Assembly (NCBI GenBank): GCA_947445775.1
Contig: CANFEB010000001.1
Coordinates: 80,484 to 144,483, forward strand
DNA length: 64,000 bases
Direction of reading: 5' to 3'
DNA from: Oligoflexales bacterium
GTDB lineage: Bacteria; Bdellovibrionota_B; Oligoflexia; Oligoflexales; RGVZ01
Of the stretch, positions 2,385-46,596 are shown one piece after another. The notes under the pieces were generated by a model. That model was not told where the DNA came from and ran no database searches. It saw nothing but the letters and a program-made list of their open reading frames with translations. The first letter of the stretch is position 1. Every line of letters begins with the position of its first letter. Position numbers and translations under genes: made by a program.

Positions 2385-3828
2385 GAGGCGCCTTTGCAAT
2401 TGCTGTCTCGTTTGTGGAATATTCGACAATGGTTTTTTTATTTTCGATGATCAATGGCGCAAGTCCGCCGCCGGTTCCGATGTTGACCACGGGGCCGGCT
2501 GAGAATCGCGAAACGCCGCCACCACACAGTGGCGGTGTCCCGGAATTTAAAAAAACAGAGGCATCAACGTAGCCATGAATGACCTCGTTACTGGCCTTGC
2601 TGCTTAAGATGACTTGACTCTTGTGGCGCCGCCCGGCCATGCGTCGCTGAATAATCCAGACGTCGGAAGATTCTGCGGTGATCCAGCGCCAAAAAAGCGC
2701 AGGTGTAACCGTGTGAGAAACCTTCAAAAGATTTTTTAGCCGAACTTGATTTTCATGTTGATCCAATTCACTGCCAACAAAAACTAGATGGCCACCGTAT
2801 CCCGATGAACCCTTGATTACGAAATCGGCGCAATTTCCGACGAAGTCGGCCTCGGATTCACCAAATTCAGAGCTGATCTGCGCAATGGAGAATTTAGCAG
2901 ACGCAATGACTCGCGTCCAAGGCACGCGCCCGCAGATTGCCGCGCGTTGCTCTGGCGAAAGGCCCGCGGCGGCAGAAAGGCTGTCGTTGCTGGCCAGCAC
3001 CGACACCATCGCCAAAAACGCCTTGACCTCATAGTGGGCACTCACGGGATTGTAAATCCGGTGACGACGCGCATCACGCAGGGCAGTCAATAATTGCGAA
3101 TGACCTGATAGGTGCGATAGGCGCGATGCAAATATATGCCGGTATACGAAATCGGCGGGACGCTGACCCCACTGCGCAGGGGTCACCCGAAAGGCCTCGA
3201 CACGGCCTTGCCAGCGGTCTTCCAAGTACATCAATTCGGCCAACTGAGAATCGCCTTCACGGTGCAGTATGGCAACGCGGGGGCGGGCTGTCCGACCTTG
3301 GCGACCATCGCCTTTGGTACGGACATCATTACCGCCGCCGTCACGGTGCCAACTCTCCAGCAAACTATCAAGAAGGTCGTCGCTGTTGCCGCCAATGGGC
3401 GCGGCCATGCCACTAGCAGCCGACCATGCATTCATAACCATGTCACTATAAGCCTGCATGGCTGGAATGGTGCAATTGGCCTCAATCACCTTCAAGTCAT
3501 CGCCGTGCCAAAACAAATCAAAGCGCATGGTCGCAAAACCAGAATTGGCATCGGGACTGCAACGGGCCGCTTCGCGTTCAATGCCGTCCAACCCACCAAA
3601 AATTCGCTGCCAAAGCCCCTGATTTTCAGGACGTTGGATCCAAGACAATACACGCGGAAAACAAGCAAGGATCAACCGAGCATCGTGGACTAGAAGTTGC
3701 CAGTCACTGTTAGCGACGACAACCGGACTCAAGGCGACGGGAATCGGACGCCACGTTGCAGAAGATTTGTCCCAGGTGGACAGATTTTGCCGCCGCAATT
3801 CACTTTGAAATTTCGATAGGTCCAACAT
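2377..3828 (-). CDS. ATP-grasp superfamily protein (glutathionylspermidine-synthase-like or circularly permuted ATP-grasp; family uncertain)
   Basis: ORF 2377-3882, probable start M19. Motifs MRFDLFWHGDDLKVIEANCTIPAM, FVIKGSSGYGGHLVFVG and C-terminal GGGVSRF..NIGTGGG resemble ATP-grasp elements. Confidence 0.4.
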   Translation of the reverse strand: MLDLSKFQSELRRQNLSTWDKSSATWRPIPVALSPVVVANSDWQLLVHDARLILACFPRVLSWIQRPENQGLWQRIFGGLDGIEREAARCSPDANSGFATMRFDLFWHGDDLKVIEANCTIPAMQAYSDMVMNAWSAASGMAAPIGGNSDDLLDSLLESWHRDGGGNDVRTKGDGRQGRTARPRVAILHREGDSQLAELMYLEDRWQGRVEAFRVTPAQWGQRPADFVYRHIFASRLSHLSGHSQLLTALRDARRHRIYNPVSAHYEVKAFLAMVSVLASNDSLSAAAGLSPEQRAAICGRVPWTRVIASAKFSIAQISSEFGESEADFVGNCADFVIKGSSGYGGHLVFVGSELDQHENQVRLKNLLKVSHTVTPALFWRWITAESSDVWIIQRRMAGRRHKSQVILSSKASNEVIHGYVDASVFLNSGTPPLCGGGVSRFSAGPVVNIGTGGGLAPLIIENKKTIVEYSTNETAIAKAPHG

Positions 3829-7795: not shown

Positions 7796-8187
7796 TCGAA
7801 CGCCTTCTCCCCTTGGCCCTGATGAGCGGCATGGGCGCCAAAGGGTATGAAAAAAAGGACGTGGTCACCGACAAGATGAAGCAATTTGTCACGAGCATCG
7901 AACGGGTGGTGAATTATCAGCGTATTTCAACTGTGGCCCACGCCATAGAATTGGCGATGATCGACGAAAATCCGCCGAAAATCGAAGACCCAAAGATTTT
8001 CAAGGCGACCGTCAGAGAACTCGTCGGGATCGGCAAAAAGGGCAAGGGTGACGCCTCGAAAGATTACTGGGGATCAGAATTGCGCATTAAAGTAAAAGCC
8101 AACACCTTTGTCGTCTTCTCGGCTGGGCCGGACAAAAAATGGAGCACCAAGGACGACCAATCGGTCATGGCCGAGATCATTCGTTGA
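7792..8187 (+). CDS. soluble T2SS GspG-C-like (pseudopilin globular domain) protein lacking a prepilin N-terminus
   Basis: 131 aa with an ATGA overlap onto the upstream gene. KDYWGSELRIKVKANTFVVFSAGPDKKWSTKDD resembles the DPWG...SxGxDG...DD motif of GspG. Confidence 0.4.
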   Translation: MIERLLPLALMSGMGAKGYEKKDVVTDKMKQFVTSIERVVNYQRISTVAHAIELAMIDENPPKIEDPKIFKATVRELVGIGKKGKGDASKDYWGSELRIKVKANTFVVFSAGPDKKWSTKDDQSVMAEIIR

Positions 8188-8500: not shown

Positions 8501-9349
8501 ATGACCAATGCCCGCAATAACCTCTGTGCTATTGATGAAGTTAAAAAAATACCGGCACTACTAGACACCATTCACCAGATTATTTTCAAGAAGAAGCAAA
8601 AATTCGCCCTAACTGGATCGAGCGCCAGAAAGTTAAAAAGGGTGGCGCAAATCTTCTGGCGGGTAGAGCCCTCGTATATCATTTGTATCCCCTGACCTTT
8701 GCAGAGATGGCAGATGACTTTGATTTGTTAGAGACCCTTCAGTATGGCAGCCTGCCAGAAATCGTAAACGCTTCATCACGAGAGGAAGCGCAAGAAACGC
8801 TTCGTGCGTACGTTAACACGTATCTGCGCGAGGAAATTCTCATCGAACAACTCGTACGTAACGTGACCCCTTTTCGTAAATTTCTTGAGGTCGATGCCCA
8901 GTGTAATGGGCAAATCATCAATTACGCGAAAATCGGCCGCGACTGCGGCGTCGATGGGACCGCTATTGAACGGTATTTTCAAATTCTTGAGGACACTCAT
9001 GTGGGATTTACGCTGCAGCCATTTCATCTATCAATCCGCAAACGGCAGGCGCAAAAACCGAAGTTTTATTTTTTTGACCTTGGTCTTCGACGGTTTTTAG
9101 AGGGGCTGATTTCATTTCCCGCAGTTGAAGGTAACTTTCAGTTTGGAAAGATATTCGAGCATTTCATTATTTTGGAAATCATGCTGTTGACTGAATATTA
9201 CAAAAAGGACTTTCGCCTTAGTTTCTTGATGACTAAGGAAAACGCCAAAATTAATTTAATTGTGGAACGACCTGGTCAAAAAACTCTCGCGATCGAAATT
9301 AAATCAGCGAAATTCGTCGATGAAGTCGAAATCGCGAAAATGCAACGCC
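8501..9349 (+). pseudogene. AAA_14/DUF4143-type ATPase fragment 1 (no P-loop, frameshifted, 3'-truncated)
   Basis: Starts at Walker B (CAIDEVKKIPALL). A 1-nt loss in the G-run near 8640 splits ORFs 8501-8695 and 8683-9387; the expected reading is SSARKLKRGGANLLAGRALVYHLYPLTF. Ends at IEIKSAKFVDEVEIAKMQRL. Confidence 0.75.
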
Positions 9350-10303
9350 TGGGCAGTGCTCATCGACGAAGTTCAAAAGATTCCTGAATTATTAGATGTG
9401 GTTCACCGACTGATTGAAGACAGGGGCATCAAATTTGGGCTTACCGGGTCAAGCGCCCGCAAGCTTAAGCACGGTGGCGCAAATCTTCTCGCCGGTAGAG
9501 CATTTGTCTATAATCTATTTCCCTTCACGTCATTTGAACTCGGTGATTCTTTTCGCCTTGAGGATGCCTTGATGTGGGGCACTCTTCCGAAAATCCATGG
9601 GTTACAAAACGCGGATGATAGAATTCAATATCTCAAATCTTACGCTAATACGTATATTCAAGAAGAGGTTTGGGAGGCTCATCTCATTAAGGATTTAGTC
9701 CCATATCGGCGCTTTTTACAAGTTGCGGCTCAAACCAACGGGGCCGTCATAAACTATTCACACATCTCAAACGACACACGTGTTGACCCCAAAACTGTTC
9801 AACGTTATTTCCAAATCCTTGAGGAAACGTTACTTGGTTTCTTTTTAGAACCATTTCATCGATCCCTTCGAAAGAGGCAGCGTGCCAATCCCAAATTCTA
9901 TTTTTTTGATATTGGCGTCCAGCGCGCGTTGACAGCTGATTTCGCGATCGATTTTGGGCGTGGATCTTTGGGTTTTGGCAATCGATTTGAGCATTTTGTA
10001 ATTTGTGAAATTGTCAGGTTGAATCACTACCATCAATCCCGGTTTGACATTTCATTTATTCGCGAAAATGACGACCTCGAAATTGATGTTGTACTCTCTC
10101 ACCCAACGGGGAAACTTTGGTTCATCGAGATTAAATCGACGGACTTCGTGCAACAAACTCATTGCGAAGCCCTTGAGTATTTCGGCGAAAAATTTCACGA
10201 CGCAAAATGCGCTGTCTGGTCTTGTGACAAAATAGCCAAATCATTTGGAAAAATATCCGCGCTACATTGGCAAAACGGACTTCAGGACGTCTTTGGAATT
10301 TAA
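9350..10303 (+). pseudogene. AAA_14/DUF4143-type ATPase fragment 2 (5'-truncated at Walker B)
   Basis: In the frame of ORF 9260-10303, homology begins at VLIDEVQKIPELL...GLTGSSARKLKHGGANLLAGRAF, with C-terminal LEIDVVL...WFIEIKST (nuclease-like D..E.K). There is no Walker A anywhere upstream. Confidence 0.75.
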
Positions 10304-41203: not shown

Positions 41204-41985
41204 CCACCAACACGACAACCAACCGGCGAAGCGGCACCGTTTTGCTCGTTGAAGACGAACCCAATTTGGCGTTCACCCTGGAACTCAACCTGAAGGCCGA
41301 AGGTTTTAAAGTCACAGTCTGTATGGACGGTGAGGCTGCCGAAAATTTGATCCGCACATCGATCGAACCATTTGACTTGTACTTGTTGGATGTCAACTTG
41401 CCGGGGCGCAGCGGTTTTGAAATCGCGGCTGCGATCCGGGAAAAAAATCAGCACGCAGGGATTATCTTTTTGACGGCGCGAGCCAGCGAATCCGATTCGG
41501 TTCACGGCCTGTCACTAGGCGCTGACGATTACATCACCAAACCCTTTCGCCTAGCCGAGCTACTCCTCAAGGTCAAACGAACCCTGGCCCGATGCGCCAT
41601 GTTTGATTCAGGAGAGTCTTTAGCTGCTGGCCCGTTGGCGTGGGGACCGTTTCAACTGGATCCAGAAAAACTAAAAATCAGTTCGCCATCTGGAGTTGCG
41701 GATTTGACGCGACTTGAGGCCGACATGCTCAGGGAATTTTTTGTAAATCCCGACAAGGTTTTAAGCCGTCAACACCTTCTCGCAAAAGTCTGGGGTGTCA
41801 GTCAGGATGTTGAAACCCGCACGGTCGACAATTTCGTGGTCCGTTTGCGCCGCCTCATTGAAAGCGACCCGACAAATCCTCGTTATTTGAAAAGCGTTCG
41901 GGGTCGCGGCTATGTCCTTTCCGACGAGGACGCTGCCAAGGACGCTGCCAAGGACTCTGGCAAGGACGCTGGCTATGCACCTTGA
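41200..41985 (+). CDS. OmpR/PhoB-family response regulator
   Basis: VLLVEDEP, LYLLDVNLPG, and a winged-helix C-terminus (RTVDNFVVRLRRL...RGRGYVL). Confidence 0.9.
   Translation: MTTNTTTNRRSGTVLLVEDEPNLAFTLELNLKAEGFKVTVCMDGEAAENLIRTSIEPFDLYLLDVNLPGRSGFEIAAAIREKNQHAGIIFLTARASESDSVHGLSLGADDYITKPFRLAELLLKVKRTLARCAMFDSGESLAAGPLAWGPFQLDPEKLKISSPSGVADLTRLEADMLREFFVNPDKVLSRQHLLAKVWGVSQDVETRTVDNFVVRLRRLIESDPTNPRYLKSVRGRGYVLSDEDAAKDAAKDSGKDAGYAP
41929..41973. repeat. 12-bp tandem repeat GACGCTGCCAAG x ~3.7
   Basis: Encodes the DAAK-DAAK-DSGK-DAG tail of the regulator. Confidence 0.85.
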
Positions 41986-42889
41986 ATTTGAAAAATGGCA
42001 CGGCTGCAACAACGACTTCGTGGTGGCGTGGATCCAACGCACTGACAAAGATCTTATCATTCCAAGTTTGCAGCGCCAGGCGGCGCGAATTTGCAGCCGC
42101 ACAGGATCTGGCATCGCCGCCGACGGCCTGTTGATTTTGGTGACGCGAGACCGTCGGGAACTTTACCCGGAGGAACTCATCGTCATCAACTCGGATGGCA
42201 GCCTGGCAAAAAACTGCGGCAACGGATTGCGCTGCGCCGCCCGCAGCGTGCTTCGCAAATTACAAGCAGCGGGCACAGCACCAGGTGACATGCCTCCGGC
42301 TTTTGAACTTCAGATTCAAGGTCGAGTATTTTGGTGCAAGGTCTTTGACCAAAAAGTTTTTGGCGCCAAGGGTTTTATCGGGGTCGGCATGGGCGAGGCC
42401 GAGGTCGAAGCCATCGGAGCAGGCCACCGCCTGCGGGCTGCCCTTGAACTGGCCCTTATGTCACCCCGCGCCGATCAACTTGCATTTTACCGAGTCGTCA
42501 TTGGAAATCCGCACTTGGTTTTGCTTGGCATGCCGCCTGATGCAATGCGACTCGCGGCCTTTGCTGAGGCGATTCAAAATCTTGACGGTTGGGATGGCAT
42601 CAACGTCCACTTTGCGGAAGAATCTGCCACGGTCAAAAACGTGAGCGTCCAAGTGGACCAATCGTGGACGGTCCTTCCGTGGGAGCGCGGCGTTGGTCTG
42701 ACCCAGGCGTGTGGCAGCGGGGCCGTGGCTGTCGCAGCCGCCGTTGCAGCCCAAGACGCCATGGGCGAAAGCGAGGGCTGGACCATGATTCGCATGCCCG
42801 GGGGCGATCTTTTTATTCAAATCGCCGAAGAAAATCATACACTGGCTGGACCGGCGGAGCTTGCCTTCACTGGGGCGTTGGAAATCTGA
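41975..42889 (+). CDS. dapF: diaminopimelate epimerase
   Basis: ATG 41975 gives MHLEFEKWHGCNNDFVV. Also NSDGSLAKNCGNGLRCAA and ACGSGAVAVAAA. Confidence 0.8.
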   Translation: MHLEFEKWHGCNNDFVVAWIQRTDKDLIIPSLQRQAARICSRTGSGIAADGLLILVTRDRRELYPEELIVINSDGSLAKNCGNGLRCAARSVLRKLQAAGTAPGDMPPAFELQIQGRVFWCKVFDQKVFGAKGFIGVGMGEAEVEAIGAGHRLRAALELALMSPRADQLAFYRVVIGNPHLVLLGMPPDAMRLAAFAEAIQNLDGWDGINVHFAEESATVKNVSVQVDQSWTVLPWERGVGLTQACGSGAVAVAAAVAAQDAMGESEGWTMIRMPGGDLFIQIAEENHTLAGPAELAFTGALEI

Positions 42890-42899
42890 ACCAGAAATC
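42851..42899. repeat. direct repeat copy 1 (dapF 3' end, includes the stop codon)
   Basis: CCGGCGGAGCTTGCCTTCACTGGGGCGTTGGAAATCTGAACC... recurs at 43351 with 1 mismatch in the first 42 nt. Confidence 0.9.
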
Positions 42900-42920
42900 C
42901 GAAATCCGAAATCCGAAATC
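42894..42920. repeat. 7-bp tandem repeat GAAATCC x ~4
   Basis: Read directly; intergenic. Confidence 0.9.
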
Positions 42921-43045
42921 GTGCATCGGTTACACAGATGCGATGTCGTTAGTAACGATCCTTTGACTAAGGTAGACTTGATAGTAAAGACTTCGTTACT
43001 AGATGAAAACGTTAGTAACGTTCCCGTTACATCACGAGGGCTGAG

Positions 43046-43348
43046 TTGAGCAAGCCGAAGGGATTACCCGGCTCGGTTCGTTCCTCGCAAAACTGGATCG
43101 GTAGAAGTCGACCGGGCTTGGCACAATTTGTCCCTCTACCTCTGCTGGTACGAATCGGCAGATGAGGCCGTCAATATGATCAGCGTACTATTCAAGTTAG
43201 TATCGCGAGACCGGACGACAGCAAGTGTTATGCAGCTGCTCGATATTACGAAGTCGAACATATGTTTACCGGTGAATATGCTCTGCCATATTGGCTCTTG
43301 AACTTGCTAAACGCTCAAGATGTGCCGTATAACGAGCAGCGGGGCCGT
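43046..43348 (+). pseudogene. Fic/DOC-family gene remnant (5'- and 3'-truncated, in-frame stop, catalytic motif degenerate)
   Basis: One frame reads KGLPGSVRSSQNWIGRSRPGLAQFVPLP...R*...AAARYYEVEHMFTGEYALPYWLLNLL. Compare Fic PGxFRxxQNWIG...FVPPP...HxxFExIHPFxDGNGRxxR, which has similar spacing. Confidence 0.4.
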
Positions 43349-43350
43349 GG

Positions 43351-43399
43351 CCGGCGGAGCTTGCCTTCACTGGGGCGTTGAAAATCTGAACCGGAAATC
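43351..43399. repeat. direct repeat copy 2 of the dapF 3' end
   Basis: Exactly 500 nt downstream of copy 1; about 48/50 identical. Confidence 0.9.
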
Positions 43400-43413
43400 T
43401 GAACCGGAAATCT
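43382..43413. repeat. 13-bp tandem repeat AAATCTGAACCGG x ~2.5
   Basis: Read directly; intergenic. Confidence 0.85.
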
Positions 43414-43427
43414 AAAAAGGCCACGGG

Positions 43428-44222
43428 ATGAAATCTAAAGCCAGCGCCCAATCTCAATCCAACAACGTGCCTGCTGTTATACCTGCCATTGAAAAAACGG
43501 GCGAGGTCGCTAAACGGGTTGCGCTGCTGATGCCGCTAGTCCGAACCCTTCAGGCTTATCATCGCCACCAGGTGGTGGGTCTGCGCAACCTGCCAAAGTC
43601 CGGTCCGTTCTTGATCGTCACCAATCACAGTCTGGCCACCTATGACATCATGCTGCTGTTTGCCGCCATTTATCAAAACTCCCGCCGCCTGGTGCGTCCC
43701 CTGGTCGACCGCGCATTCTGGAAAGTCCCGTATCTTGGGGATTTGATGAATTTCTTTGGTTCGGTGCAGGGCAGCAACGATGGCGGCAAGGAACTTCTGG
43801 CCGATGGCAACATTGTCGCCGTTGCCCCTGGGGGAATGCAGGAGGCCTTGCGGCCCTCAGAAGAACGCTATCAAGTGCGTTGGAGCAAACGTCGGGGATT
43901 CGCGCGCATGGCCATGGAGGCTCAAGTTCCCATCATCCTTGCCGCTTGCCCGCGGGCTGACGACATGTTTGAGGTCTATCCGAATTTTCTGACCAAAATG
44001 ATTTACGACCGCCTGCGCTTGCCGCTGCCGTTGATGCGCGGAATTGGCCCGACGATCATTCCGCGTCCTGTCAAGTTGGTGCATTACTTGAGCGAGGCCA
44101 TGCGCCCGCCCAAGATTGACGCCGATCCTGAGGTTAACCAAAAACGCCTCGAAGCCTGGCACCAGAAATTGACCAAGCGCATGCAGCAACTCATCGGAGA
44201 AGCCATTGCCCATGAAAACTGA
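43428..44222 (+). CDS. lysophospholipid/glycerolipid acyltransferase family protein
   Basis: LIVTNHSLATYD (H-x-D acyltransferase block) and VAPGGMQEA. Confidence 0.55.
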   Translation: MKSKASAQSQSNNVPAVIPAIEKTGEVAKRVALLMPLVRTLQAYHRHQVVGLRNLPKSGPFLIVTNHSLATYDIMLLFAAIYQNSRRLVRPLVDRAFWKVPYLGDLMNFFGSVQGSNDGGKELLADGNIVAVAPGGMQEALRPSEERYQVRWSKRRGFARMAMEAQVPIILAACPRADDMFEVYPNFLTKMIYDRLRLPLPLMRGIGPTIIPRPVKLVHYLSEAMRPPKIDADPEVNQKRLEAWHQKLTKRMQQLIGEAIAHEN

Positions 44223-45437: not shown

Positions 45438-46494
45438 CTAAAACCCACAGTCCTTCAACATATCTTGCCAAGGCATGATTTCGATACCATCGCGGTGTAA
45501 ACGCTCGGTCCCCTGATAGGCGACGATGGCGCGATGGGGTTTTCCATAATAGCGCGCGAAACTTGCGAGCCCCGTCAGATCCGAGTCGCCAATATTTCTT
45601 GTGGCTTTGATCTCTAGGGCGATGGTCTCGGTGGGGCGCTCAATAATTAAATCAACTTCAGCGCCATGCTCGGTTCTATAACTGGAAAGCCTCACGCCAA
45701 TTTCATCGCGCGCAGAGATGCTGTGCAAAATCTGGGTAACGACAAGAGTCTCAAAAAGCGTTCCCTTGCGGTCATCACTCACAATGAAGTTACCCAACAA
45801 ACCATTGAGTACTCCGGTATCAAAAAAGAAATATCTGGGATGCTGAACCAAACGCGTGCGCGTGGATTTTGCGAACGCTTCCAATCGATGAACAATCAAC
45901 GTGTCCTCGAGGATCTCAAAAAACCGACGTGCAGTCTGGTGGTTCACCTGAGCCTGTATCGCAAGTTTTTGAATATCTAAAAATTGGCTGGACGTTACCG
46001 CGGCGAATTTTAGAAATCGCGCAAATCCCTCAATATTTCTTGTAAGCGCCTCTGCCTGAATCTCCTCTTTCAGATAAGTCGCCGCATAGGAAGAAAGCGT
46101 TTTAATTTTATCCCTCTCGCTATCCTCGGTATATATCCCCGGCAGCGAACCAAACGCCATCAACGCATTTTCATTCGCCTGGTAATTGAGTTCAGCGGCT
46201 ACGAGTGGCCCCATTGCGAAGGCATGAATGCGCCCGGGCAACAAATTGGCTTGTCCCCGCCGCAGCTTTCGCGCGCTGGACCTCGTCAATAAACACGATT
46301 TGATCGCGGTTTTTGGGATTACTCCGTTGCTCTAATCGCCTCGGATCCGCCGCATAGTCAAGATACTCTCCCTCGTGGGCAAGATTGATCTTCAGTGCAT
46401 TTGGAAAGATTTGACCCAAAAGAGTGGACTTGCCAGTCTGCCTGGGACCAAAAATTAATGGGCTTTTTTTTGGGCGCTTTACACGTCGTGTTGA
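45438..46494 (-). pseudogene. AAA_14/DUF4143-type ATPase, decayed (5' stop, internal out-of-frame deletion)
   Basis: Walker A LIFGPRQTGKSTLL (46423-46449) lies downstream of an in-frame TAA (46495-46497). FIDEVQR is joined directly to ARKLRRGQANLL at about 46272, with roughly 25 codons missing and a frame change. C-terminus AEVDLIIERPTETIALEIKAT. Confidence 0.75.
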
Positions 46495-46596
46495 TTATCC
46501 CGCGTATTTTCAACGCATAGCAACAATATTGATCCGAGTCAGTCCCTTCAATTCGTCCAGGCTACGAGGTCAACCAAACTTCAGCGGCAAAGAAAA

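What the first reader, a model, noticed from the sequence alone, without database searches (positions are those of the whole stretch)
42851..43399. The dapF 3' end is duplicated 500 nt downstream, bracketing a Fic-like gene remnant: a footprint of an eroded integrated element
The 42 nt at 42851-42892 cover the last dapF codons, the stop and 3 more nt. They recur at 43351-43392 with a single mismatch, and about 48/50 match when extended. Different short tandem repeats follow each copy: 7-mer GAAATCC x4 after the first and a 13-mer x2.5 after the second. The bracketed segment has a composition unlike dapF and contains one frame that reads like the core of a Fic/DOC protein. That frame carries PGSVRSSQNWIG...FVP and, about 43 aa later, EVEHMFTGEYALPYW where the HPFxDGNGRxxR motif should be. 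It has an in-frame TGA and no ends. Duplication of a gene's 3' end is what site-specific integration into that end produces (attL/attR). Most of the element has since been deleted.
Basis: partly seen in the sequence, partly recalled or inferred. Interest (0 to 1): 0.6.

Follow-up and report, generated by a model that had tools for sequence, protein, structure and literature searches.

The report
Shredded Fic gene insert beside dapF

Summary
The repeat is real. 42851-42903 recurs at 43351-43403 (50/53 identical), one of only two direct repeats of at least 35 nt in the 64-kb window. The host is an uncultured Oligoflexales bacterium. The next genera and several more distant relatives have dapF next to the acyltransferase gene with no insert, and two strains of the same species (L093, L180) have an empty site with one repeat copy. 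Other sister strains (L174-L179) carry an intact 385-aa Fic gene at this spot. That gene is flanked by the same dapF-end duplication and the same 16-nt dapF scrap before copy 2. The window's insert is that 1.5-kb cassette minus seven internal deletions (988 nt). The conserved region upstream of Fic survives, 91 of 385 codons remain, and the catalytic HPYLDGNGR motif is deleted. No integrase occurs in the intact cassette or in a second dapF-end duplication found in another Oligoflexales lineage (L048, 6.3 kb). The layout fits a single-crossover insertion of DNA carrying a dapF 3' fragment, as e14 does at icd. The enzyme responsible is unknown. This is a known kind of feature and of low to moderate interest.

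The parts
41975..42889 (+). dapF (diaminopimelate epimerase), intact, 304 aa. Its last 39 nt belong to repeat copy 1.
   Evidence: TIGR00652 131.5 bits (cutoff 114.65) and PF01678. Conserved C-terminus ..LAGPAELAFTGALEI.
42851..42903 (+). Repeat copy 1 (attL-like): the dapF end, the stop and 14 nt beyond. The first 30 nt (42851-42880) are identical in both copies.
42894..42920 (+). GAAATCC x3.9 tandem repeat at the left edge of the insert. It has x3 units in strains L003/L004 and L174.
42936..43037 (+). Conserved region upstream of Fic (TAGTAAC / GTTAC half-sites and TTGACT), retained almost intact. Likely a promoter or operator.
   Evidence: 97/102 identical to L174 3967-4068. Conserved upstream of Fic homologues in four other contexts.
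43038..43271 (+). Fic pseudogene made of six retained blocks joined by deletions. Blocks are 43038-43066 (aa 118-127), 43067-43135 (aa 152-174), 43136-43151 (aa 197-202), 43152-43213 (aa 282-302), 43214-43255 (aa 328-342) and 43256-43271 (aa 367-372). The start codon, the inhibitory motif and the catalytic motif are all deleted.
   Evidence: Global alignment to L174, junction analysis, tblastn and phmmer hits to Fic proteins, shuffle tests.
43272..43335 (+). Non-coding 3' tail of the cassette.
   Evidence: Part of the block window 43272-43387 = L174 5291-5406, 112/116 identical. No similarity to dapF.
43336..43351 (+). 16-nt scrap identical to dapF 42714-42729 (the GSGAV codons). It is the left part of a dead dapF 3' fragment that has lost 122 nt.
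   Evidence: (D3). The same junction is present in L174 and L178.
43351..43403 (+). Repeat copy 2 (attR-like): a dead dapF end (..PAELAFTGALKI*) joined to the native spacer.
   Evidence: The single copy in empty-site strain L093 matches this copy.
43382..43413 (+). 13-mer x2.5 tandem repeat in the native dapF-acyltransferase spacer. It is hypervariable between strains.
43428..44222 (+). Acyltransferase gene (PF01553). In the empty-site conspecific strains and the nearest genera it lies within about 50 nt of dapF, and within about 100 nt in several more distant relatives.

Best explanation
The 500-nt unit is the decayed remnant of a roughly 1.5-kb single-gene Fic cassette. The cassette holds a conserved upstream control region, a 385-aa Fic_N + Fic gene and a short 3' tail. 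It was inserted between dapF and the acyltransferase gene in an ancestor of part of this Oligoflexales species.

Shown:
- The ancestral state is dapF directly followed by the acyltransferase.
- The population now holds three states: empty, intact Fic, and shredded Fic (this window).
- The window version differs from the intact one by seven internal deletions. These remove the start codon and the catalytic motif, so the gene is dead.
- The dapF-end duplication came with the cassette and is shared by the intact and shredded forms. Copy 1 completes the working dapF. Copy 2, together with the 16-nt scrap, is a dead dapF 3' fragment sitting on the native spacer.

Inferred:
- The layout 'gene, insert, dead 3' fragment of the same gene' is what one crossover between the chromosome and a circular DNA carrying a dapF 3' fragment produces (Campbell-type insertion, as e14 does at icd).
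- Whether a site-specific recombinase acting in trans or ordinary homologous recombination made the crossover cannot be told. The cassette encodes no recombinase.
- The later shredding is ordinary deletional decay of a gene that is no longer needed, or that is harmful.
For: - Repeat and 16-nt scrap.
- The same insert appears in six independent assemblies.
- Synteny with a dapF-to-acyltransferase gap of 12-50 nt holds in the next genera (L007-L010, L013-L015, a JGI contig, L094-L097), and adjacency (gap up to about 100 nt) also holds in some more distant Oligoflexales.
- Empty sites with one copy in conspecific strains L093 and L180 (dapF DNA about 97% identical).
- Intact Fic (PF13784 + PF02661) at the same site in L174-L179, with the same flanking repeat and the same scrap.
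- Block-by-block alignment of the window to L174 shows seven deletions of 362, 72, 66, 239, 78, 74 and 97 nt. Retained blocks are 90-100% identical.
- The catalytic motif HPYLDGNGR (aa 214-222) lies inside the 239-nt deletion, and junctions share 1-8 nt of microhomology.
- The Fic origin is also seen without the sister strains: tblastn against plasmids hit 155 records, the listed annotated ones being Fic family protein genes (E about 1e-3). The protein search gave only Fic hits (E 3.9e-5 in 5.8 billion sequences).
- Precedent for gene-3'-end duplication by integration: e14 in icd, 163 bp (PMC6379469).
Against: - No recombinase gene lies in the intact cassette.
- No integrase-bearing element at dapF was found in 80 genome loci, 80 metagenome loci or viral contigs.
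- The insert-borne tail of copy 1 (GAAATCC repeats) resembles the native spacer of strain L180. An in-place duplication followed by divergence is therefore not excluded.
- The 3/53 divergence between the copies is similar to strain-level divergence of 2-4%, so it does not prove that one copy was foreign.
- Empty sites could be secondary precise losses by recombination between the repeats rather than the ancestral state within the species.
Confidence: 0.75

Rival explanations
1. A full integrative element (genomic island or prophage) with its own tyrosine or serine integrase integrated site-specifically into the dapF 3' end. The two repeats are attL and attR, and everything but the Fic gene was later deleted.
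For: - The att-like duplication includes the target gene's 3' end, and empty sites have one copy.
- A second Oligoflexales lineage (L048) has a 345-nt dapF 3' duplication bracketing a 6.3-kb accessory island. This hints that the dapF end is a preferred site.
- e14 at icd is a precedent.
Against: - The least-decayed form is only 1.5 kb with one gene and no integrase.
- The L048 island also has no integrase. It holds a GLUG surface protein, an AAA_14/DUF4143 ATPase, a possible IS-like fragment with no Pfam match, and Kelch and RNase PH fragments.
- No integrase-bearing element was seen at dapF in about 160 loci.
- No inverted-repeat core is evident in the 30-nt identical stretch.
Confidence: 0.2
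2. In-place duplication. The cassette was captured at a staggered break, or at a tandem-duplication junction, in the dapF end. Both copies were originally identical chromosomal DNA, like a very long target-site duplication, and have since diverged.
For: - The copy 1 tail resembles native spacer alleles.
- Divergence between the copies is about the same as strain divergence.
- Homologous Fic genes elsewhere also sit next to duplicated fragments of neighbouring genes: L181/L186 (84 nt) and L182 (78 and 140 nt).
Against: - It requires a duplication of at least 190 nt plus a later 122-nt deletion.
- No known bacterial mechanism gives such long target duplications routinely.
- In L181 the sequence after the second copy does not continue into the duplicated gene, as a simple target duplication would predict.
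Confidence: 0.12
3. Fic was ancestrally present between dapF and the acyltransferase in this species, and the empty sites are later precise deletions. The repeat is a by-product of older rearrangements, not of an insertion.
For: - Fic-bearing strains span the deepest dapF divergence seen (L178 at 96%).
- Recombination between 53-nt repeats could delete the cassette precisely.
Against: - All other genera lack any insert and have a single dapF end. The cassette must therefore have been gained at some point, together with the duplication.
- This rival changes only the timing, not the nature, of the event.
Confidence: 0.1
4. Assembly artefact or chance repeat.
For: None beyond the general risk with metagenome assemblies.
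Against: - The same structure appears in six assemblies from different samples and assemblers, with strain-level SNPs and a 12-nt length variant.
- Intact and empty alleles lie on distinct strain backgrounds.
- Only two repeats of at least 35 nt exist in 64 kb.
Confidence: 0.01

Closest known systems
e14 element / phage 21 integration into the 3' end of icd in E. coli
   Same: Insertion into the end of a housekeeping gene. The incoming DNA supplies a replacement 3' end, so the gene stays intact. A dead 3' fragment of the gene (163 bp for icd) is left at the far end of the insert. The two copies differ at a few positions, including a conservative amino-acid change. Here the change is E/K at the penultimate dapF codon (for e14; here).
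   Different: e14 is a 15-kb defective prophage with its own integrase and excisionase. Here even the intact insert is 1.5 kb with one gene and no recombinase, and excision or integration activity has not been shown.
Fic_N + Fic proteins (PF13784 + PF02661) with the N-terminal inhibitory motif (class II Fic AMP-transferases, own knowledge after Engel et al. 2012)
   Same: The intact sister-strain gene has the (S/T)xxxE(G/N) motif (TSQIEG) and HPYLDGNGRIGR, and both Pfam domains. It is 65-77% identical to hundreds of proteins, many of which carry a source name of 'Fic family protein'.
   Different: The window copy is a pseudogene. It keeps 91 of 385 codons in three different frames, and it has no start codon, no inhibitory motif and no catalytic motif. 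The Pfam profile does not detect it.
Degraded genomic islets / 'grounded' prophage remnants
   Same: There is presence/absence polymorphism between strains, att-like flanking repeats, lower GC than the flanks, and decay by deletion.
   Different: No phage or conjugation gene was ever seen at this site. The decay is unusually patchy, with seven deletions of 66-362 nt in 1.3 kb and only about 4% substitutions in what remains.

Membership tests
Fic/DOC family gene (PF02661) | Significant match to the Fic domain profile | tested here: not met
   Pfam and NCBIfam gave no hit for the 101-aa frame at E <= 10. PDB phmmer returned only chance antibody hits.
Fic/DOC family gene (PF02661) | Descent from a Fic gene (homology to bona fide family members) | tested here: met
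   Retained blocks are 90-100% DNA-identical to an intact Fic_N + Fic gene at the same locus in sister strains. Independent hits went only to Fic proteins.
Fic/DOC family gene (PF02661) | Catalytic motif HxFx(D/E)GNGRxxR present | tested here: not met
The motif (HPYLDGNGR, aa 214-222 in L174) lies inside the 239-nt deletion.
Fic/DOC family gene (PF02661) | Intact reading frame | tested here: not met
   The start codon is deleted, the blocks are in three frames and there is an in-frame stop. It is a pseudogene.
Site-specific integrative element (integrase-bearing island or prophage) | Direct repeats (attL/attR) at both ends that include the target sequence | tested here: met
   A 53-nt repeat with a 30-nt identical core. 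The same repeat flanks the intact cassette.
Site-specific integrative element (integrase-bearing island or prophage) | Empty site with a single copy in relatives | tested here: met
   L093 and L180 within the species. All other genera examined also have a single copy.
Site-specific integrative element (integrase-bearing island or prophage) | Integrase or recombinase gene inside the element | tested here: not met
   None in the window insert and none in the intact 1.5-kb cassette. None in the 6.3-kb L048 island.
Site-specific integrative element (integrase-bearing island or prophage) | Excised circular form or attP junction | not testable with these tools
   This needs read-level data. A search for the junction 22-mer in viral contigs found nothing.
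IS / transposon insertion | Short target-site duplication (2-14 bp), terminal inverted repeats and a transposase | tested here: not met
   The duplication is at least 53 nt and non-identical. No inverted repeats lie at the insert ends and there is no transposase.
Integron gene cassette | An attC recombination site at the cassette end, with IntI and attI nearby | tested here: inconclusive
   The flanking repeat is dapF coding sequence, not an attC-like imperfect palindrome. No inverted repeat lies in the 3' tail. No dedicated attC or IntI search was run.

The most novel reading that the evidence does not exclude
This Fic gene, with its conserved upstream region, may be a recombinase-less mobile cassette that spreads by a mechanism leaving long duplications of neighbouring gene ends. 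Alternatively, the dapF 3' end may be the dedicated attachment site of an as yet unseen Oligoflexales integrative element family acting in trans.

Leads:
- The same Fic lineage sits next to duplicated fragments of adjacent genes in three different contexts: the dapF site, L181/L186 (84-nt ATPase fragment) and L182 (78-nt and 140-nt repeats).
- A distant Oligoflexales genome has an independent 345-nt dapF-end duplication around a 6.3-kb island that also holds an RNase PH 3' fragment.
Probability: 0.12. Interest if true: 0.6.

Novelty: new member of a known kind. Interest (0 to 1): 0.3.

Why it matters
This is mostly a clean worked example rather than a discovery. One small locus in an uncultured predatory-bacteria relative (Oligoflexales) shows all three stages of accessory-gene turnover in one natural population: empty site, intact gene and shredded gene. 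The insertion scar, a duplicated housekeeping-gene end, is preserved throughout.

It gives a caution for annotation. A profile search misses the remnant, and a plausible-looking 'degenerate catalytic motif' turned out to be a deletion junction.

The open point is how a 1.5-kb cassette without a recombinase came to be flanked by a gene-end duplication of the e14/icd type, and why similar scars recur around this Fic lineage and at dapF in another lineage. If that reflects a specific mechanism, it would be of wider interest.

Tried and rejected
- Pfam, NCBIfam and PDB sequence searches of the 101-aa frame gave no Fic hit. This was uninformative because the remnant is a patchwork.
- The 'EVEHMF..' stretch as a decayed HPF motif was rejected.
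- Rfam and promoter/terminator scans of 42600-43600 found nothing.
- A scan of viral contigs for dapF relatives and for the junction 22-mer found nothing.
- I considered that the cassette had spread between strains recently, because it is 99% identical between L174 and L178 while their dapF genes are 95.9% identical. This was rejected. The low dapF identity comes from one divergent 400-nt patch, and the flanks are otherwise as similar as the cassette.
- I considered a link between the Fic remnant and the nearby DUF4143 ATPase pseudogene, because Fic and such an ATPase are neighbours in L181 and an ATPase lies in the L048 island. This was rejected. The three ATPases are only 34-37% identical.
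- I tested whether the cassette's 3' tail is further decayed dapF. It shows no similarity above shuffles.
- A six-frame Pfam scan of the unassigned parts of the L048 island looked for an integrase. It found only Kelch and RNase PH fragments.
- A literature search for dapF as an attachment site found nothing relevant.

Full report
**Observation.** The direct repeat is real. 42851-42903 recurs at 43351-43403, 53 nt with 50 matches. The first 30 nt are identical, and the mismatches fall at repeat positions 31, 43 and 50. Only two direct-repeat families of at least 35 nt exist in the whole window. Copy 1 holds the last 12 codons and the TGA of dapF. dapF is 41975-42889 (TIGR00652 131.5 bits, PF01678). 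GC drops from 0.56-0.64 in dapF to 0.47-0.52 inside the insert. One detail was missed. The 16 nt just before copy 2 (43336-43351) are identical to dapF 42714-42729, the GSGAV codons. Copy 2 is therefore the end of a longer dapF 3' fragment that has lost 122 nt.

**Host and the ancestral state.** The closest genomes in GTDB are uncultured Oligoflexales (Bdellovibrionota) MAGs, with DapF at most 67% identical. Gene order around the locus is conserved: ABC transporter, FtsX, DUF3299, histidine kinase, response regulator, dapF, acyltransferase, (epimerase), PilZ, SBP_bac_5, Tricorn-like. In the nearest relatives dapF is followed by the acyltransferase after 12-50 nt (L007-L010, L013-L015, a JGI contig, L094-L097). 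Several more distant Oligoflexales also keep the two genes adjacent. None of these has a second copy of the dapF end. The 539-nt gap in the window is therefore derived.

**The insert is not an assembly artefact.** Six contigs from different samples and assemblers carry an acyltransferase identical to the window's. The four that include dapF have the same 539-544-nt gap, and all six contain the insert sequence. They differ by a few SNPs, one 7-mer unit and a 12-nt length difference.

**Three states in one species.** The 90%-identity DapF cluster holds several strain groups.
- *Empty.* L093 (dapF DNA 97.1% identical to the window) and L180 (97.3%) have dapF, one copy of the repeat, a short tandem-repeat spacer and then the acyltransferase start. 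The L093 copy matches the window's copy 2, including the A that makes the penultimate residue K instead of E.
- *Intact.* L174-L177 (97.8%) and L178/L179 (96.1%) carry a 385-aa gene with Pfam Fic_N and Fic domains between dapF and the acyltransferase, a spacing of 1544 nt. It has the inhibitory-type motif TSQIEG and the catalytic motif HPYLDGNGRIGR. The same dapF-end duplication flanks it (L174 3877-3929 and 5370-5422, 83-85% identical). The same GCAGCGGGGCCGTGGC scrap precedes copy 2. The duplication and the 122-nt loss therefore predate the split of these strains.
- *Shredded.* This is the window and L001-L006.

**What the window insert is.** A global alignment of window 42800-43470 to L174 3826-5500 shows collinear blocks at 90-100% identity. 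They are separated by seven deletions of 362, 72, 66, 239, 78, 74 and 97 nt, 988 nt in all.
- The 102 nt upstream of the Fic start are kept almost intact (97/102).
- The first deletion removes the ribosome-binding region, the start codon and codons 1-117.
- The retained coding blocks are aa 118-127, 152-174, 197-202, 282-302, 328-342 and 367-372, in three different frames.
- The catalytic motif (aa 214-222) is inside the 239-nt deletion.
- Junction microhomologies are 1, 3, 1, 1, 8, 2 and 1 nt.

'PGSVRSSQNWIG..FVP' is real Fic sequence (aa 152-174). This holds without the sister strains.
- tblastn against plasmids hit 155 records. The listed ones that carry annotation are 'Fic family protein' genes (E about 1e-3).
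- The protein search returned only Fic-family hits (best E 3.9e-5 in 5.8 billion sequences).
- Shuffle tests gave z of about 15 for the core and about 8 for the upstream patch RAELSKPKGLP.
It is Fic codons 367-372 (..RTYVYR..) read out of frame and fused to 3' non-coding DNA.
- The Pfam Fic profile detects nothing in the remnant.

**The upstream region.** The roughly 100 nt before the Fic start, with repeated TAGTAAC/GTTAC half-sites and TTGACT, are conserved upstream of Fic homologues in four unrelated contexts: L181, L182, L183 and L187 (Fic 75-90% identical). DNA homology between contexts starts there and ends a few nt before the stop. The conserved unit is therefore 'control region + Fic'. 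That this region is a promoter or operator, perhaps bound by the protein's own C-terminal domain, is my inference.

**How it got there.** Shown: the layout is intact dapF, insert, dead dapF 3' fragment, native spacer. Inferred: this is the product of one crossover between the chromosome and a circular DNA that carried a dapF 3' fragment. In that case the tail of copy 1 is insert-borne, and copy 2 with everything to its right is native. The known precedent is e14 in icd, which leaves a 163-bp icd' fragment and changes one C-terminal residue (PMC6379469).

The step I cannot show is the enzyme.
- The intact cassette has no recombinase.
- About 160 dapF loci from genomes and metagenomes gave only one other dapF-end duplication, L048. 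There, 345 nt at 93-96% identity bracket 6.3 kb. That island holds a GLUG/CHB_HEX_C surface protein, an AAA_14/DUF4143 ATPase, a possible IS-like fragment with no Pfam match, and Kelch and RNase PH fragments. It has no integrase either.
- Viral contigs gave nothing.

An in-place duplication also stays open. The tail of copy 1 resembles the native spacer allele of L180. The 3/53 divergence between the copies is in the range of strain divergence.

**Checks that changed my mind.** The cassette is 99.0% identical between L174 and L178, while their dapF genes are 95.9% identical. This looked like recent cassette transfer. A position-by-position comparison shows that the dapF value is driven by one 400-nt patch at 7% divergence. 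The rest of the locus is as similar as the cassette, so there is no evidence for separate mobility. The DUF4143 ATPase pseudogene 2 kb downstream is only 34-37% identical to the ATPases next to Fic in L181 or in the L048 island, so there is no link.

**Verdict.** This is an insertion footprint with att-like gene-end duplication around a Fic remnant. The 'element' was a single Fic cassette with no integrase, the supposed catalytic motif is a junction artefact, and site-specific integration is unproven. It is a new example of a known kind of event. The value lies in the complete population series (empty, intact, shredded) and in the unexplained recurrence of gene-end duplications around this Fic lineage.

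Noticed in passing
window 45438-46530 (- strand): An AAA_14/DUF4143 (COG1373-type) ATPase gene that is frameshifted (tblastn matches in two frames). It sits between the epimerase and PilZ genes, where a relative (JGI contig) has nothing. This is a second, independent insertion and decay event 2 kb from the Fic remnant.
   Followed up: partly
L181 7497-7580 and 9174-9257 (also L186 2890-2973 and 4567-4650): A Fic gene 90% identical to the dapF-site one lies divergently next to an AAA_14/DUF4143 ATPase in a polysaccharide gene cluster. An 84-nt piece of the ATPase 5' coding region is repeated (95%) 12 nt after the Fic stop.
   Followed up: partly
L182 1261-1338 / 3510-3587 and 62-201 / 1485-1624: Around a 77%-identical Fic gene, the last 78 nt of Fic are duplicated 2.2 kb upstream (97%). 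A 140-nt repeat (97%) interleaves with it, and a BrnT toxin gene lies in between. This is a tandem-duplication-like scar.
   Followed up: no
L048 10640-10983 and 16984-17341: In a distant Oligoflexales MAG (DapF 38% identical), 345 nt of the dapF 3' end plus downstream DNA are duplicated (93-96%) around a 6.3-kb island. The island has a GLUG surface protein, an AAA_14/DUF4143 ATPase, a possible IS-like fragment, a Kelch fragment and an RNase PH C-terminal fragment, and no integrase.
   Followed up: partly
window 42936-43037; L174 3967-4068; L181 7895-8000; L182 about 2312-2415; L183 about 7898-8000; L187 203-301: A conserved non-coding region of about 100 nt upstream of this Fic lineage, with invariant TAGTAAC / TGACTA / TCGTTAC motifs arranged as direct and inverted repeats. 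It is probably a promoter or operator. It survives nearly intact in the window although the gene is destroyed.
   Followed up: partly
window 42890-42920 and 43387-43427; L093 1268-1308; L180 1010-1050; L174 5400-5459: The short dapF-acyltransferase spacer is a hypervariable tandem repeat built on GAAATC (7-nt and 13-nt units). It differs strongly even between strains whose dapF genes are 99.8% identical (L093 vs L180).
   Followed up: no
window 8633-8696 and 9465-9528: The only other long direct repeat in the window (64 nt, 77%). From my reading of its translation (not tested) it may encode a ..GGANLLAGRA.. stretch like that of COG1373-type ATPases, which would suggest two adjacent paralogues.
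   Followed up: no
L174 / L178 positions 3200-3600 (dapF middle): A 400-nt patch of dapF is about 7% divergent between two strains that differ by 1-2% elsewhere in the locus. This suggests a recombination mosaic inside dapF.
   Followed up: no
window 41912-41985: The response-regulator gene ends in a repeated AAKD motif (..DAAKDAAKDSGKDAG..) encoded by a 12-nt tandem repeat. The repeat overlaps the dapF start and varies between strains (L178 2953-2997).
   Followed up: no
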